Virus record (IMG/VR): IMGVR_UViG_3300021963_005763 | Coordinates: 39,954 to 103,953 of that record | Length of the DNA stretch: 64,000 nucleotides | DNA from: a virus | Reading direction: 5' to 3' (one strand) | Shown here: positions 4,102 to 21,800 of the stretch, piece after piece | Layout of the letters: every line of letters starts with the position of its first letter | Position numbering within the stretch: position 1 is the first letter of the stretch | Position numbers and translations under genes: made by a program | The notes under the pieces: generated by a model | What the model was told of the DNA's origin: nothing | Databases searched by the model: none | The model's input: only the letters and a program-made list of their open reading frames with translations

Positions 4102-4995
4102 ATGACTATAATAACAAAAAAGGTAAAATACCTTAACAATCGTGATCTATTAGAAGAAATTCATAAGAGTAAATGTAGTTTTTCATGTTTCAGTAGTAAA
4201 GAATATCAACAACACGACATAATCGTAGCAGATATAAAAAAAATCACAATAAGAACCATAAGCGATGCTAAGAAAAACCGTGCTAAACGAATAGGTTTGA
4301 AAAATTTCGTAGAAGCTAGAAAAAACGGAGATAAAAAAATTAAATTAGCAGACCTTACTCCAGATTATAAAAAAATATTAAAGACCGATCTTGTGTTTAG
4401 AGTAATGACATTCGAACACATACCACTTACTCCGGGTCGAAAAAAAACTACCAAGACTACTTCAGATAATCACGAAAAAGTAAATTTTCCTCCTTTCCAG
4501 CATTGGAAATTTAACGAAGAAAATGAATTGATCTGTGTGGGCAAAAGTCATTGGAAGGGCGGAATAAAGACAGGAAAATTTTCTAAAGAACACGGACGTA
4601 TTACCGAAGAACTAGGCCGTATGTTTATTAAACTTTCCGAACGTTATGCCCAACGTAGTAATTGGCGTGGCTATACCTATATCGACGAAATGCGTGGTCA
4701 GGCCATATTACAACTTAGCCAAATTGGTCTACAGTTCGATGAATCAAAATCAGAAAACCCATTTGCCTACTATACTGCTGCTGTCAATAATTCATTTACT
4801 CGTATTCTTAATATTGAAAAGAAAAATCAGAATATCAGAGATGACATGCTGATTGAAAACGGACTAACGCCTAGCTCAACTAGACAAAATTATCAGGAAT
4901 TCGCAGAAGAAATAGCACGACAGGCTAACTTATATAAAAATACAAGAATGCCAAAAGCAGCAGAAAATATAGAAGATGAAGAGGAGGCGGCTTGA
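4102..4995 (+). CDS. gp55: Late-transcription sigma factor, gp55-like
   Basis: N-terminal YLNNRDLL; NWRGYTYIDEM...FDESKSENPFAYYT...F.RIL..EKK motifs; adjacent to gp47/gp46 as in T4-like phages. Confidence 0.8.
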   Translation: MTIITKKVKYLNNRDLLEEIHKSKCSFSCFSSKEYQQHDIIVADIKKITIRTISDAKKNRAKRIGLKNFVEARKNGDKKIKLADLTPDYKKILKTDLVFRVMTFEHIPLTPGRKKTTKTTSDNHEKVNFPPFQHWKFNEENELICVGKSHWKGGIKTGKFSKEHGRITEELGRMFIKLSERYAQRSNWRGYTYIDEMRGQAILQLSQIGLQFDESKSENPFAYYTAAVNNSFTRILNIEKKNQNIRDDMLIENGLTPSSTRQNYQEFAEEIARQANLYKNTRMPKAAENIEDEEEAA

Positions 4996-7828: not shown

Positions 7829-8141
7829 ATTTGAAGATAGATATCGAGAATTGTATTCAAGATACGTAGAGCTTAATATAAATCTGCATAATTACCATGT
7901 CGAGTTCTTCAGGCGTAAGTTAAAGAAAGATGCAGATAATATACGAGATTGTCTTGCCGAGATGAGAGAACTTGTATTGGATATGAAAAAGATAGTGTTA
8001 GCAGTAAGACGAGAACATGTAAAAAATTGGCGAGTAAAAATACAGGACAAATATTATTACTCTAAAGATGGAAAGAAAAAACTAAAGAGGTCAACGAAAA
8101 AAGATTATGGAAACTACAAACCACCTGAAAAAACTATTTGA
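7818..8141 (+). CDS. Hypothetical basic helical protein
   Basis: 107-aa ORF overlapping both neighbours in the operon. Confidence 0.55.
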   Translation: MSTEFEDRYRELYSRYVELNINLHNYHVEFFRRKLKKDADNIRDCLAEMRELVLDMKKIVLAVRREHVKNWRVKIQDKYYYSKDGKKKLKRSTKKDYGNYKPPEKTI

Positions 8142-8301
8142 AGAATTTCTCAAAGAAGATGAAAAGTTTACCAGCGGCAATGCTGCGGCTGGAACCAGAG
8201 CAAGAAAAGCATTAGCAGAAATTTCTAAGACAGTTAAAGCTCGTCGTAATGAAATTACAGAAGAAAAAAATGCTCGCAAGGAAGCCAAGGCCGCTAAATG
8301 A
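8107..8301 (+). CDS. Histone H1-like (Hc1-family) small DNA-binding protein
   Basis: GNAAAGTRARKAL.EI motif; 64 aa; Lys/Ala-rich. Confidence 0.7.
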   Translation: METTNHLKKLFEEFLKEDEKFTSGNAAAGTRARKALAEISKTVKARRNEITEEKNARKEAKAAK

Positions 8302-8304
8302 TTG

Positions 8305-8739
8305 ATGTCTTGGTATCATCAAGATACGATAGTCAATGAATTACCCGATGATTGTATTGGTTTTGTGTATCTCATCACCAATACAATCACAAATAAAAAA
8401 TACATAGGCAAAAAATTAGGCAAATTTTCAAAAACAACCTACAAAGTAGTAAAATTAAAAAACGGTACTAAGAAAAAGAAACGCATCAAAACAAAGATAG
8501 ACTCAGACTGGCAAACATATTACGGCTCAAACGATCAACTCACAAAAGATGTAGCACAATTAGGCACCGACAAATTTCACAGAGAAATATTATATTTTTG
8601 TAAATCTAAGGCAGAATGTAGTTACATTGAGGCACGCGAACAATTCACAAGAAAAGTATTAGAATCAGACGAATATTATAACGGACAGATATCTGTTCGT
8701 GTCCATGGCTCACATATCAAAGGCAAATTAATCGGTTAA
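8305..8739 (+). CDS. Stand-alone GIY-YIG family nuclease
   Basis: GFVYLITN...KKYIGKK, YYGS, E, YYN motifs; Lys-rich insertion; no appended DNA-binding domains. Confidence 0.8.
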   Translation: MSWYHQDTIVNELPDDCIGFVYLITNTITNKKYIGKKLGKFSKTTYKVVKLKNGTKKKKRIKTKIDSDWQTYYGSNDQLTKDVAQLGTDKFHREILYFCKSKAECSYIEAREQFTRKVLESDEYYNGQISVRVHGSHIKGKLIG

Positions 8740-8741
8740 CG

Positions 8742-9152
8742 GCTCGCACAGGCTAACTTCATGTGCCCTAAACCTGGACCTAGTGTCGCAGGGACGGAAT
8801 GCTCACCGCCGTAGTGAGAACTCAACCACTACCCATAAGGATGTAGATCACTAATCGCCGTGATTTGGTTGTTTGAATAGGTTAAACCCAAGGCAAAAAA
8901 GACGCTCTTAATCGAGCACGTTTTACAAATGTGATAGCGTATATTTGTAAGACCGCCGTTGTAATGAAGACGGGGATGGAGGTACCGGACAACCGCCTCT
9001 GCTAAACACCCTAACGCTGTGTGACTATGCTACTCAGATGATGCATAACTTCGCCCGCCCTGGGCGAAGTGTGACCACTTAATCTAGATGATACTAAAAG
9101 ACAAAAATGCTTCGAGTCTCGTAGACGAAGAAGCGAACGAACGTAGTTCGTT
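8742..9152 (+). ncRNA. Putative large structured non-coding RNA (family not recognised; strand assumed from flanking genes)
   Basis: No ORF of 60 aa or more; ~48% GC by hand count; at least 10 consecutive stems, a multi-way junction and a possible pseudoknot. Confidence 0.6.
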
Positions 9153-9180
9153 ACTAAATACCGGATACTGTCAATAAATC

Positions 9181-14881: not shown

Positions 14882-16606
14882 ATGTCTTGGAAAAAATACT
14901 TTACTCCTGTAAAACCCACAACTGGCCAACTTAGTGTGATAAGTGGTTCTGGAGTAGGGCATACTAATCCTGCGCATCGCAATTATTCAAGTTACTTACC
15001 TGATGTTTATTCAGGACATCCTAATCGTCTAGAACGGTATGGTCAATATGATACAATGGATAGTGACAGTGAGGTTAATGCTGCTTTAGATATTCTAGCC
15101 GAATTCTGTAGTCAGACGAATGATGAAAATGGTACACCCTTTAGAGTTTTCTTTAAAGAACAGGCAACAAATGCTGAAATAACCGTAATTAAAAAATATC
15201 TACAACAGTGGACTAAACTCAATAAATTTCAATTAAGAATATTCAAACTCGTGCGTAATGCTTTCAAATATGGGGATGTATTTTTTGTACGAGATCCTGA
15301 GACACAAAGTTGGTTATTCGTAGATTCTGCCAAAGTTGACAAGATTGTTGTAAACGAAAGCGAAGGTAAAAAACCTGAACAATATCACATCAGAGATTTT
15401 AATCCAAACTTAGAAACTCTAGCAACTACGGCTATCAATCCCAGTAATGTAACTGGAGGAGGAAGTCAATATGCTAGTAGCTTTGCGGGAAATGCAGGTG
15501 GTGCAGGTTATAGCCGAGGCATGACAGGCGCATTTCCGACAAATATATCAGGCACTCGATTTGACAAGAATGAAAGACAATATGTTATAGATGCTAGGCA
15601 TATTATACATATCTCAATGAGTGAAGGTTTAGATAATAATTATCCTTTTGGAACTAGTCTATTAGAAAGTATTTTCAAAGTTTACAAACAAAAAGAACTT
15701 TTAGAAGATGCTATTATTATCTATAGAATACAACGAGCACCAGAGCGACGTGTTTTTTATATAGATGTAGGTAATATGCCAAGTCATATTGCTATGAGTT
15801 TTGTTGAACGAGTAAAAAACGAAGTAAATCAACGCCGTATACCTTCAGTAACTGGTGGAAGCCAAAGTGTTATAGATGCAGGATATAATCCTTTATCAAT
15901 AAATGAGGATTATTTCTTCCCACAGACAGCAGAAGGTCGAGGATCTAAGGTAGAAGTATTGCCTGGTGGAACTAATCTGGGAGAAATAGATGACCTCAAA
16001 TACTTTACCAATAAGTTATTCCGTGCTCTGCGCATACCTAGCAGCTACTTACCTACAGGCCCAGATGATGGAGGGAGTAATTTTAATGATGGAAGAGTGG
16101 GAACAGCTTATATACAGGAACTTAGATTCAACAAGTACTGTGAACGACTACAATCATTAATGAATGAACAATTTGATACTGAGTTCAAATTATATTTGCA
16201 TAATAAAGGTATTAATATTGACAAAAATTTATTTGATCTAAAATTTAATCCTCCTCAAAATTTTGCTGCTTATAGACAAGCTGAAATGGATACAGCTAGA
16301 ATTAATACTTTTAATACTGTAGTAGCTATACCATTTGTTAGTAAGAGATTTGCTATGAAACGGTTCTTAGGCATGACTGCTGAAGAAATAGCAGAAAATG
16401 AACGTATGTGGCGTGAAGAAAATATAGATGAGGGTGTAGAATTACCTGCTAGTGCTGAATTAAGAAGTATAGGAGTAAGCGCAGGCGGCATGAACAGTGA
16501 CTTATCAAGTATATCAAGTGCAACTGTTCCTCCACCTTCATCACCTTCAAACCAAGAATCTGCAGATACCGCTGCTCCGGCTGGAGCTCCTACTCCTACA
16601 ACATAA
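14882..16606 (+). CDS. gp20: Portal protein
   Basis: LLEDAIIIYRIQRAPERRVFYIDVGNMP, EDYFFP..EGRGSKVEVLPGG.NLGEIDD..YF..KL.RAL.IP motifs. Confidence 0.95.
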   Translation: MSWKKYFTPVKPTTGQLSVISGSGVGHTNPAHRNYSSYLPDVYSGHPNRLERYGQYDTMDSDSEVNAALDILAEFCSQTNDENGTPFRVFFKEQATNAEITVIKKYLQQWTKLNKFQLRIFKLVRNAFKYGDVFFVRDPETQSWLFVDSAKVDKIVVNESEGKKPEQYHIRDFNPNLETLATTAINPSNVTGGGSQYASSFAGNAGGAGYSRGMTGAFPTNISGTRFDKNERQYVIDARHIIHISMSEGLDNNYPFGTSLLESIFKVYKQKELLEDAIIIYRIQRAPERRVFYIDVGNMPSHIAMSFVERVKNEVNQRRIPSVTGGSQSVIDAGYNPLSINEDYFFPQTAEGRGSKVEVLPGGTNLGEIDDLKYFTNKLFRALRIPSSYLPTGPDDGGSNFNDGRVGTAYIQELRFNKYCERLQSLMNEQFDTEFKLYLHNKGINIDKNLFDLKFNPPQNFAAYRQAEMDTARINTFNTVVAIPFVSKRFAMKRFLGMTAEEIAENERMWREENIDEGVELPASAELRSIGVSAGGMNSDLSSISSATVPPPSSPSNQESADTAAPAGAPTPTT

Positions 16607-20990: not shown

Positions 20991-21012
20991 AAGCCCGCCA
21001 TGCGGGCTTTTT
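20991..21012 (+). terminator. Rho-independent terminator after the major capsid gene
   Basis: AAGCCCGC-cat-GCGGGCTT followed by T run. Confidence 0.85.
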
Positions 21013-21086
21013 GTTAACAGCCTTAACAGGTTTATGCGGTACCCGCCGCGTAGTGGCTAGAACCCACATACATTGAGGAGAAACAA

Positions 21087-21800
21087 ATGGGACGTCCGAT
21101 TAAAGAAAAGTTTTTTGGTAATACAAATTCACCTTACACAAATGTAGCAAGAGGTGGAACATCAGGAGTAGGTGGGGAAGGATTTGGTGCTGTTGCAATT
21201 TTAAATACAGCAACAAATAGCGGATATTCTACTTCTACAACTGTTACATGGACAGGAAGCACACCGCAAGTTCCGGGTGGTGTAGCAGCTAGCGGTACTG
21301 CAAATGTGCAATTTATTGGTGGAACTGGGCGTATTCAAAGTCTTAATATAACTACCGCTGGTACTGGTTATACATCAACATCTAGCGTTACTATAACATT
21401 TAGCCCAGCAACAGGTGGTACTGCTGCTACGTATGCTATTACTGCTTTAACATCAAGTCGCCAAAATGCGTTGAGAGGTTTCGCATACCTAACGACTGGA
21501 AGTAGTGCTGTTCCTTATGATATTATGGAACAAAGAAGTAGCCGCAGGTATTTAGTGAACACAAGTCAAGGTAGGGGCGTGGTTAAATTAGCTACTACTA
21601 CAACCTTAACAGCAGGAACAATGAATTTAGAAGCTACTGATGCAAATAGTAATAAGTATCTTGTTAAGAAATTAACAGGACGCCGTGCTGTTCTTGTAAG
21701 AACAACAGCTAGCGGAGCTTGGTTATTTGCTACAAATGCTGCCGCAGGGTGGACATTTAATTCTGCGAGCACAGGCACAGTTAGTTTAGCAAATAATTAA
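21087..21800 (+). CDS. Putative head decoration/virion protein
   Basis: Thr/Gly-rich beta-type sequence; strong GAGGAG SD; directly after the capsid gene. Confidence 0.5.
   Translation: MGRPIKEKFFGNTNSPYTNVARGGTSGVGGEGFGAVAILNTATNSGYSTSTTVTWTGSTPQVPGGVAASGTANVQFIGGTGRIQSLNITTAGTGYTSTSSVTITFSPATGGTAATYAITALTSSRQNALRGFAYLTTGSSAVPYDIMEQRSSRRYLVNTSQGRGVVKLATTTTLTAGTMNLEATDANSNKYLVKKLTGRRAVLVRTTASGAWLFATNAAAGWTFNSASTGTVSLANN

What the first reader, a model, noticed from the sequence alone, without database searches (positions are those of the whole stretch)
9019..9092. Two constant-variable-constant units with an exact 50-nt period inside the putative RNA
Seen: GTGTGAC-[TATGCTACTC]-AGATGAT at 9019-9042 and GTGTGAC-[CACTTAATCT]-AGATGAT at 9069-9092. 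The flanks are identical, the 10-nt inserts differ, and a perfect 9-bp hairpin separates the units. Known: GUGA and GAUGA resemble box D (CUGA) and box C (UGAUGA) motifs of kink-turn/guide RNAs. Inference: these could be paired protein-binding sites or short guide cassettes, or iteron-like DNA sites. With only two copies the evidence is limited.
Basis: partly seen in the sequence, partly recalled or inferred. Interest (0 to 1): 0.7.

Follow-up and report, generated by a model that had tools for sequence, protein, structure and literature searches.

The report
Matched twin boxes in phage RNA

Summary
In detail: GTGTGAC-N10-AGATGAT occurs at 9019-9042 and 9069-9092, separated by a 9-bp hairpin.

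The units lie in the 3' half of an RNA of about 415 nt (8741-9154). Its first 134 nt match Rfam Polynucleobacter-1 (113 bits). Covarying helices and two pseudoknots support the rest.

Across more than 200 related loci:
- The 50-nt period is not conserved (47-65 nt).
- Only 5-8 nt of each insert vary; ACUC (unit 1) and AUCU (unit 2) never change.
- Unit 1's variable patch pairs with the linker behind it. Unit 2 shows no such stem.

The 7-mer after ACUC/AUCU (here AGAUGAU) has 9 variants. It was identical in both units in 189 of 189 loci sampled blind, with at least 46 mirrored changes on a tree. Targeted scans found rare mismatched pairs: unit 1 G with unit 2 A in 15 loci, the reverse in one. 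Identity is therefore strongly selected but not absolute.

K-turn/box C/D, guide-cassette and iteron readings fail their tests. No complementary partner and no covarying neighbouring protein was found. The most likely reading is two matched sites for one unseen reader.

This scan has already reported the same "twin-box" RNA in more than ten other genomes.

The parts
8741..9154 (+). Full-length structured non-coding RNA (extended Polynucleobacter-1, 'twin-box' RNA)
   Evidence: The whole spacer is conserved in relatives whose downstream protein is only 49-69% identical. An nhmmer profile finds it end to end in about 190 loci. On alignment A2, 84% of cells are paired against 67% in shuffles, and the covariation score is 0.478 against 0.167 (0 of 500 shuffles reach it).
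8741..8874 (+). 5' domain, the part catalogued as Rfam RF01718 (Polynucleobacter-1)
   Evidence: cmscan scores 113.1 bits against a gathering score of 37, covering model positions 1-141.
8922..8951 (+). Long covarying hairpin. Its loop AGCG (8936-8939) pairs with CGCU (9015-9018) just 5' of unit 1, forming pseudoknot 1.
   Evidence: All 11 stem pairs show changes on both sides. The loop-to-CGCU helix is 100% paired, with CG to UA in 9 sequences and GC to AU in 4.
8958..9012 (+). Pseudoknotted core: GUUGU (8958-8962) with ACAAC (8989-8993); GGGG (8972-8975) with CCCU (9009-9012); GGAGG (8978-8982) with CCUCU (8996-9000)
   Evidence: Helices 4, 5 and 6 are 99%, 97% and 78% paired, and each has pairs with changes on both sides.
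9021..9047 (+). Unit 1: GUGAC (9021-9025), variable patch (9026-9031), invariant ACUC (9032-9035), box 1 AGAUGAU (9036-9042). In this window the stem is UAUGC (9026-9030) with GCAUA (9043-9047).
   Evidence: Sequence. The patch and the linker behind box 1 co-evolve: native duplex energy is -4.22 against -3.12 when permuted, z -9.8. The register shifts between lineages, so only 54% of cells pair in a fixed register.
9036..9042 (+). Box 1, the 7-mer matched to box 2
   Evidence: Identical to box 2 in 189 of 189 loci across 9 variants. Parsimony gives at least 23, 5, 11 and 12 changes at positions 1, 2, 5 and 7, each mirrored in box 2.
9048..9070 (+). Central hairpin between the units
   Evidence: The 8 inner pairs are 94% paired, and one of them covaries (UA, GU, CG, AU, GC). 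The ninth, outermost pair (9048-9070, A-U) is specific to this window and its closest relatives: it is paired in about 5% of sequences (helices 9 and 8; per-sequence folds).
9071..9093 (+). Unit 2: GUGAC (9071-9075), variable patch (9076-9081), invariant AUCU (9082-9085), box 2 AGAUGAU (9086-9092), then A
   Evidence: Sequence. There is no co-evolving stem with the tail (z -0.6). A matched zone runs from -6 to +10 around the boxes. The fixed differences between the units are CUC versus UCU and G versus A.
9109..9154 (+). Two 3' hairpins (9109-9134 and 9135-9154) that close the RNA
   Evidence: Helices 10 and 12 are 89% and 91% paired, and 5 of 5 and 6 of 7 of their pairs show changes on both sides.
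8302..8739 (+). Neighbouring SegE-type GIY-YIG gene (145 aa). It is a constant neighbour and probably not a partner.
   Evidence: Pfam PF19835, E 2.6e-32. It lies directly upstream of the RNA in 143 of 160 loci with enough flank. None of its columns tracks the box variant. Cultured relatives carry the gene without the RNA.

Best explanation
The two units are the 'twin boxes' of the 3' domain of a multi-pseudoknotted non-coding RNA of about 415 nt, the full-length form of the orphan Polynucleobacter-1 motif.

Shown:
- Unit 1 sits on a short hairpin. Its variable patch is the 5' strand and the linker behind the box is the 3' strand.
- Unit 2 follows the central hairpin, and no stem of its own could be detected.
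- Each unit displays A-YYY followed by a 7-nt word, here AGAUGAU.
- The word drifts quickly between phages but is kept the same in both units by selection. Mismatched pairs are rare.

Inferred:
Both boxes are recognition sites for one and the same partner. That would explain why they must change together. The partner could be a nucleic acid that pairs with either box, since every fixed difference between the units is a transition that a G or U opposite would tolerate. It could also be a symmetric reader. The partner has not been found.
For: The RNA is real and folded.

Box identity: 189 of 189 loci sampled blind, across 9 variants. In 157 unique RNAs, position 1 is GG 87 and AA 70, and position 5 is GG 82 and AA 75, with no mixed pairs. 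At least 46 changes of box state on a tree are each mirrored in both units.

ACUC and AUCU stay different in all loci, which argues against homogenisation by gene conversion.

The matched zone extends from -6 to +10. Identity is 76% at -5 (37% expected), 75% at +9 and 68% at +10. The four fixed differences (C/U, U/C, C/U, G/A) are all transitions.

Divergent bacterial and viral copies carry quite different words, again alike in both units: GCGAAAG and UCGAAAG twice each, and GCAAAC with GCAAAAC, which differ by one inserted A.

Rare intermediates exist, as expected for selection rather than copying. At position 1, G in unit 1 with A in unit 2 occurs in 14 loci. At position 5 it occurs in 1 locus. 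The reverse occurs in 0 viral contigs and 1 metagenome contig.

The unit-1 stem is supported by co-evolution.
Against: No partner was found.
- No RNA column covaries with the boxes; the highest normalised mutual information is 0.44.
- No reverse complement that tracks the variant lies within 3 kb.
- There is no excess of extended complements in the window's own record or in 10 large related records.
- No column of the GIY-YIG, gp46, gp47 or baseplate-hub proteins tracks box positions 1 or 5.

If a pyrimidine partner allowed wobble pairing, mixed G/A states should be commoner than observed, and the G,A versus A,G asymmetry would remain unexplained.

The tree-based change counts may be inflated by recombination between phages. 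The firm minimum is about 8 double changes for 9 variants.
Confidence: 0.5

Rival explanations
1. Direct box-to-box contact. The two boxes lie side by side in the folded RNA and touch like with like (homo-purine and U.U contacts). Identity would then be a structural requirement, with no outside partner.
For: Only a position-by-position contact yields an identity rule without a third party. No third party was found. The allowed states at position 1 (GG, AA, rarely G,A, almost never A,G) resemble the tolerance pattern of one asymmetric non-canonical pair. Purine always faces purine and pyrimidine always faces pyrimidine across the 17-nt matched zone.
Against: The bacterial-type boxes contain C and quite different words (GCGAAAG, UCGAAAG). 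A like-with-like C.C contact is unlikely at neutral pH. I know of no natural RNA with a 7-position parallel homo-pairing. No antiparallel register explains the identity (my own pairing analysis of the sequences).
Confidence: 0.12
2. Function at the DNA level. The units would be two core sites for a site-specific recombinase, whose 7-bp crossover region must match, or iteron-like protein-binding repeats.
For: Matched but freely drifting 6-8-bp overlaps between conserved arms are typical of tyrosine-recombinase sites (established knowledge). One bacterial-type copy lies between two Phage_integrase genes.
Against: The phage loci show no recombinase next to the RNA; gp47, gp46 and the GIY-YIG gene lie upstream and a baseplate-hub gene lies downstream. 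The repeats are direct and only 47-65 bp apart, so recombination would delete part of a conserved RNA. In phages the arms are not inverted repeats. The surrounding stems show compensatory changes that only an RNA needs. Box variation is restricted to purine-for-purine changes plus position 7, so it is not free.
Confidence: 0.06
3. GUGA and GAUGA would form kink-turns that bind an L7Ae-type protein, with the 10-nt inserts acting as guides.
For: There is a superficial likeness of GUGA to box D and of GAUGA to box C, and there are two copies, as in C/D plus C'/D'.
Against: The Watson-Crick C-stem beside the GA pairs cannot form, because C.C or U.C face each other. The order is D-like then C-like. 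Natural variants GAAUAAU and GCGAAAG abolish the motif. The inserts are partly invariant, vary in length, and one pairs locally. Neither insert matches elsewhere above chance.
Confidence: 0.03

Closest known systems
Polynucleobacter-1 RNA motif (Rfam RF01718; Weinberg et al. 2010, PMC2864571)
   Same: The first 134 nt match the model at 113 bits. The 2010 supplement already noted that most examples lie downstream of one gene family related to a cyanophage gene, and that none was found in sequenced purified phages. Both points hold here.
   Different: The catalogued motif is 141 positions long. Here it is only the 5' third of an RNA of about 415 nt with two further pseudoknots and the twin boxes. 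None of that is in Rfam.
Box C/D guide RNAs (C/D plus C'/D' kink-turns)
   Same: Two copies of a short bipartite motif in one RNA, with GA-rich words.
   Different: No C-stem, reversed order, variable 'C box', no target matches. The membership tests fail.
Large ornate phage-associated RNAs (GOLLD, ROOL; cryo-EM homo-oligomers, PMC12286853)
   Same: A large, multi-pseudoknotted orphan RNA carried by phages and mobile elements, with no known function. RNA-to-RNA quaternary contacts are one possible use for matched loops.
   Different: There is no sequence or Rfam relationship. The RNA is much smaller. Oligomerisation was not tested here.
Matched short sequences required by a shared pairing partner (for example T4 gene 60 take-off and landing codons, or recombinase crossover regions)
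   Same: Two short sequences about 50 nt apart are kept identical while free to drift, in a T4-like phage next to a homing-endonuclease-type gene.
   Different: No reading frame crosses the units; stops lie at 9022-9024 and 9046-9048 in the GAU GAU frame. Identity spans 7 nt plus flanks, not 3 nt. No recombinase lies nearby. These are analogies only.

Membership tests
Polynucleobacter-1 RNA (RF01718) | Match to the covariance model above the curated gathering score | tested here: met
   113.1 bits against 37, model positions 1-141, at 8741-8874. Seven relatives score 112-119 bits.
Polynucleobacter-1 RNA (RF01718) | Lies downstream of the GOS11034 / PSSM2_218-like gene family (2010 supplement) | tested here: met
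   The SegE-type GIY-YIG gene ends 2 nt before the RNA. It is directly upstream in 143 of 160 loci. The same protein family is widespread in cyanophages.
Kink-turn / box C/D RNA | Tandem sheared G.A/A.G pairs flanked by a Watson-Crick C-stem and a 3-nt bulge | tested here: not met
   With either GA of the box, the position next to the bulge would be C.C in unit 1 or U.C in unit 2. No register gives a C-stem (sequence analysis and the alignments).
Kink-turn / box C/D RNA | Conserved box C (RUGAUGA) and box D (CUGA) | tested here: not met
   The 'C-like' word varies: GAUAAU, GAUGAA, AAUAAU, and GCGAAAG in bacterial copies. The order is D-like then C-like.
Kink-turn / box C/D RNA | L7Ae-family protein partner | not tested
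   No search for such a protein was made. The phage record is only 29% complete.
Guide-RNA cassette (constant flanks, hypervariable fixed-length guide) | Insert wholly variable, of fixed length, and complementary to a target | tested here: not met
   ACUC/AUCU are invariant. Unit 1's insert is 10-13 nt. Patch 1 pairs locally. Matches elsewhere in the window are at chance level.
Iterons / DNA-binding repeats | Several repeats conserved as DNA, with no RNA-level constraint | tested here: not met
   There are two copies only, inside an element with 40 base pairs that show compensatory changes.
Tyrosine-recombinase core sites | Inverted arms around a matched 6-8-bp overlap, with a recombinase gene nearby | tested here: inconclusive
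   The matched 7-mer is present. The arms are inverted only in some bacterial-type copies (ACUC...GAGU). Integrases flank one bacterial copy but none lies next to the phage copies.

The most novel reading that the evidence does not exclude
The twin boxes are a fast-evolving 'address' that is read twice. An unseen nucleic acid or symmetric factor, possibly from the host or a competing element, recognises the same 7-12 nt in both units. This large phage RNA would then be a two-site decoy or scaffold whose specificity is re-tuned by paired point changes. Alternatively, the two boxes touch each other like with like, a contact type not yet described in natural RNA.
Probability: 0.25. Interest if true: 0.85.

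Novelty: new variant of a known kind. Interest (0 to 1): 0.7.

Why it matters
Polynucleobacter-1 has been an orphan motif since 2010. This work shows that it is only the head of a large, doubly knotted RNA that is common in uncultured freshwater T4-like phages and sporadic in Burkholderiales.

Its most striking feature is an unusual kind of covariation. Two separate 7-mers are kept identical instead of complementary, through dozens of changes. Standard base pairing does not produce that pattern. It points either to a shared reader with a rapidly changing code or to an undescribed RNA-to-RNA contact.

The rare and lopsided intermediates (G,A but almost never A,G) give a concrete handle for mutational tests.

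Tried and rejected
- **Group I intron or other catalogued RNA covering the units.** Rfam finds only RF01718 in the spacer.
- **Closing R-U pair around a GNRA-like pentaloop (GAUGA).** The GAA and GAG box variants break it.
- **Complementary strand in cis.** Neither mutual information over 157 RNAs nor reverse-complement searches (7-mer, 6-mer, 5-mer, with wobble) found a partner that tracks the variant. The only enriched hit is a coding sequence in one clade.
- **The invariant GUUGUUU at about 8867-8873.** It could wobble-pair with every purine variant, but that would not enforce identity.
- **Phage-encoded trans partner with flanks (5'-U, box complement, GGG, U).** Nothing beyond chance in the window's own record or in 10 large related records. 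One 11-pair match at window 16059-16070 (- strand) lies antisense inside a 574-aa ORF and is probably chance.
- **Protein co-variation.** No column of the GIY-YIG, gp46, gp47 or hub proteins tracks box position 1 or 5.
- **Pairing of patch 2 with the tail, with patch 1 or with the linker.** No signal. There is one weak, unconvincing signal at 8831-8842.
- **Translational bypass as in T4 gene 60** (matched GGA or AGA followed by a UGA/UAA stop, about 50 nt gap, hairpin). No conserved frame or start exists, and landing would meet a stop at once.
- **Coding reading.** In the frame GAU GAU all changes look conservative, but that frame is open for 8 codons at most.
- **CsrA-type GGA sites.** About 45% of the RNAs have AGA.
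- **Gene conversion.** It would also erase the CUC/UCU and G/A differences, which are fixed.
- **Relatives among cultured phages.** No DNA match to the spacer among 50,697 phage records.

Full report
**Observation.** The window reads GTGTGAC-TATGCTACTC-AGATGAT at 9019-9042 and GTGTGAC-CACTTAATCT-AGATGAT at 9069-9092. A perfect 9-bp hairpin (9048-9056 with 9062-9070) lies between them. Within the window the pattern is only mildly unusual: 2 matches against 0.41 expected, and 7 of 100 shuffles reach 2. Its reality rests on conservation.

**Context.** The window is part of a 104-kb IMG/VR record of an uncultured T4-like phage. The gene order is a gp47-like and a gp46-like gene, a small ORF, an Hc1-like gene and a 145-aa SegE-type GIY-YIG gene (8302-8739). 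A 441-nt spacer free of ORFs follows. Then come a 427-aa gene with no family match and, further on, a baseplate-hub gene.

Rfam places Polynucleobacter-1 (RF01718) at 8741-8874 with 113 bits. The only paper on this motif lists it as an orphan candidate from Burkholderiales and freshwater or estuary samples. Its supplement notes that most examples lie downstream of one gene family related to a cyanophage gene, and that none was found in purified phages.

**One long RNA.** In seven related viral contigs the whole spacer is conserved, although the downstream protein is only 49-69% identical. A profile of the spacer finds it end to end in about 190 further loci. The Rfam motif is therefore only the 5' third.

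A structure assembled from mutual information and RNAalifold was scored on alignment A2:
- 84% of cells are paired, against 67% in shuffles.
- 40 pairs show changes on both sides.
- The covariation score is 0.478, against 0.167 in shuffles (0 of 500 reach it) and at most 0.105 for slid controls.

The structure includes:
- a long hairpin whose loop AGCG pairs with CGCU at 9015-9018, two nucleotides before unit 1 (100% paired; CG to UA in 9 sequences);
- a second pseudoknot, GUUGU with ACAAC;
- the central hairpin between the units;
- two closing hairpins at 9109-9154.

In many relatives a TATAAATA-type late promoter follows directly; the window has CTAAATA at 9154-9160. The downstream gene therefore has its own start signal, and the RNA belongs with the upstream transcript. 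No promoter-like site separates it from the GIY-YIG gene.

**What the units are.** Across 189 loci the period between the units is 47-65 nt. Unit 1's insert is 10-13 nt and unit 2's is 10 nt, rarely 11. Of each insert only 5-8 nt vary. The last four, ACUC in unit 1 and AUCU in unit 2, never change.

The 5' part of unit 1 (GUGAN plus the patch) co-evolves with the linker behind the AGAUGAT word. Native duplex energy is -4.22, against -3.12 for permuted partners (z -9.8). The register shifts between lineages. Unit 2 shows nothing comparable (z -0.6). Unit 1 therefore sits on a short hairpin, and for unit 2 no stem of its own could be detected.

**The matched 7-mers.**
- In 189 of 189 loci fetched without regard to it, the two words are identical. 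There are nine variants: GGAUGAU 49, AGAUAAU 43, GGAUAAU 34, AGAUGAU 34, GGAUGAA 17, AGAUGAA 6, GAAUAAU 3, GAAUGAU 2 and AGAUGAG 1.
- In 157 unique full-length RNAs, position 1 is GG 87 and AA 70, and position 5 is GG 82 and AA 75, with no mixed pairs.
- A tree was built from the RNA without the boxes. On it, parsimony needs at least 23, 5, 11 and 12 changes at positions 1, 2, 5 and 7. Every change is mirrored in the other unit. Recombination may inflate these counts. Even so, nine variants, with all four combinations of positions 1 and 5, need about eight double changes at the least.
- Likeness extends from -6 to +10: 76% identity at -5 (37% expected), 75% at +9 and 68% at +10.
- The fixed differences between the units, CUC versus UCU and G versus A, are all transitions. 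Their persistence argues against gene conversion.
- Divergent copies carry quite different words, again alike in both units: GCGAAAG and UCGAAAG twice each, and GCAAAC with GCAAAAC, which differ by one inserted A. These copies come from Burkholderiales genomes (4-5 of 151 searched), two MAG contigs and two viral contigs. One viral contig has A-GCGAA-U against U-GCGAA-G.

**Identity is strong but not absolute.** Earlier notes of this scan call the boxes "always identical". I searched specifically for mismatched pairs.
- In viral contigs, G in unit 1 with A in unit 2 at position 1 occurs in 14 loci from about seven lineages. The reverse occurs in none.
- At position 5 the counts are 1 and 0.
- In the far larger metagenome collection the reverse pattern gave 24 hits. 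Only one of them is a member of the RNA family.

Rare intermediates fit compensatory evolution under selection and do not fit a copying mechanism. The lopsidedness (G,A far commoner than A,G) remains unexplained.

- No column of the RNA covaries with the boxes; the highest normalised mutual information is 0.44.
- No reverse complement that tracks the variant lies within 3 kb.
- No extended complement exceeds chance in the window's own record or in ten large related records.
- No column of the GIY-YIG protein, gp46, gp47 or the hub protein tracks position 1 or 5.

The GIY-YIG protein keeps its catalytic-type residues. 42 positions are at least 97% conserved among 136 sequences whose pairwise identity goes down to 49%. 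It lies directly upstream in 143 of 160 loci. Its homologues in cultured Kyanoviridae (Melnitz, S-SRM01) have no such RNA, and one bacterial copy lies between integrase genes instead. The nuclease therefore looks like a constant neighbour and not a partner.

**Reading.** The k-turn/box C/D, guide-cassette and iteron readings each fail defining tests (see the membership table). The best-supported account is descriptive: two display elements of a compactly folded RNA, kept alike by selection.

The simplest mechanism is one reader for both. A nucleic acid would best explain how the code can change dozens of times, and why all fixed differences between the units are transitions that a G or U opposite would tolerate. 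That partner was not found.

A direct like-with-like contact is the main rival. It needs no third party and could explain the asymmetry, but it is hard to reconcile with the C-containing bacterial boxes. A recombination-site reading at the DNA level fits the "matched but drifting core" pattern. It is contradicted by the RNA-level covariation, the 47-65 bp spacing and the lack of a recombinase in the phage loci.

**Novelty.** The 5' domain has been known since 2010. I found neither the full-length RNA nor the twin boxes in Rfam or in the held literature. This scan has already reported the same RNA in more than ten other genomes.

New in this report:
- the mismatch census and its asymmetry;
- the 17-nt matched zone with transition-only differences;
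- the co-evolving unit-1 stem;
- the negative tests for cis, trans and protein partners.

Noticed in passing
window 21012-21089 (+): Rfam freshwater-2 RNA (RF02980) at 58.1 bits against a gathering score of 49.9. This is a second catalogued orphan RNA motif in the same phage.
   Followed up: no
window 9154-9160; relatives in alignment A2, columns about 611-625: A T4-type late-promoter box follows the last hairpin of the RNA directly, 20-30 nt before the downstream start codon. It is TATAAATA in many relatives and CTAAATA here. It marks the 3' limit of the RNA.
   Followed up: partly
window 9109-9134 and the same hairpin in relatives: In most relatives this hairpin carries a conserved inner motif, UGAGC-GNNA-GCGAA. 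That is a 2-bp stem with a GNNA loop flanked by GA and GAA, so it may be a tandem-GA internal loop (k-turn or loop E type). The window has a different inner sequence.
   Followed up: no
window 8107-8301 (+): A 64-aa ORF matches Pfam Hc1, the chlamydial histone H1-like protein, at E 3.3e-15. This is unusual in a T4-like phage. It is present only in the closest relatives.
   Followed up: no
window 8302-8739; GenBank phage records: The SegE-type GIY-YIG family (PHROG 447) is labelled 'NAD synthetase' in many cyanophage and rhizobiophage records. This looks like a propagated misannotation. The family occurs in 489 phage records and behaves as a conserved gene, not a sporadic homing endonuclease.
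   Followed up: partly
L088:2750-3260 (Aquabacterium MAG), L093, L102-L105: Bacterial-type full-length copies of the RNA are about 520-560 nt long. They have the same 5' domain and the same closing hairpins but a different middle. They occur sporadically (4-5 of 151 Burkholderiales genomes, mostly 1.7-1.9 Mb). One lies between two tyrosine-integrase genes and has no GIY-YIG gene.
   Followed up: partly
L114 (viral contig), units near locus positions 4400-4480: In this divergent copy the two boxes differ at both ends (A-GCGAA-U against U-GCGAA-G), while 6 nt after each box (AUAUCC) are identical. The end positions could form A-U and U.G closing pairs.
   Followed up: no
box positions 4-6 in all nine phage variants: Every variant keeps U-R-A (UGA or UAA) at positions 4-6, preceded by GGA, AGA or GAA. 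No reading frame supports a coding or bypass role, so the regularity is unexplained.
   Followed up: partly
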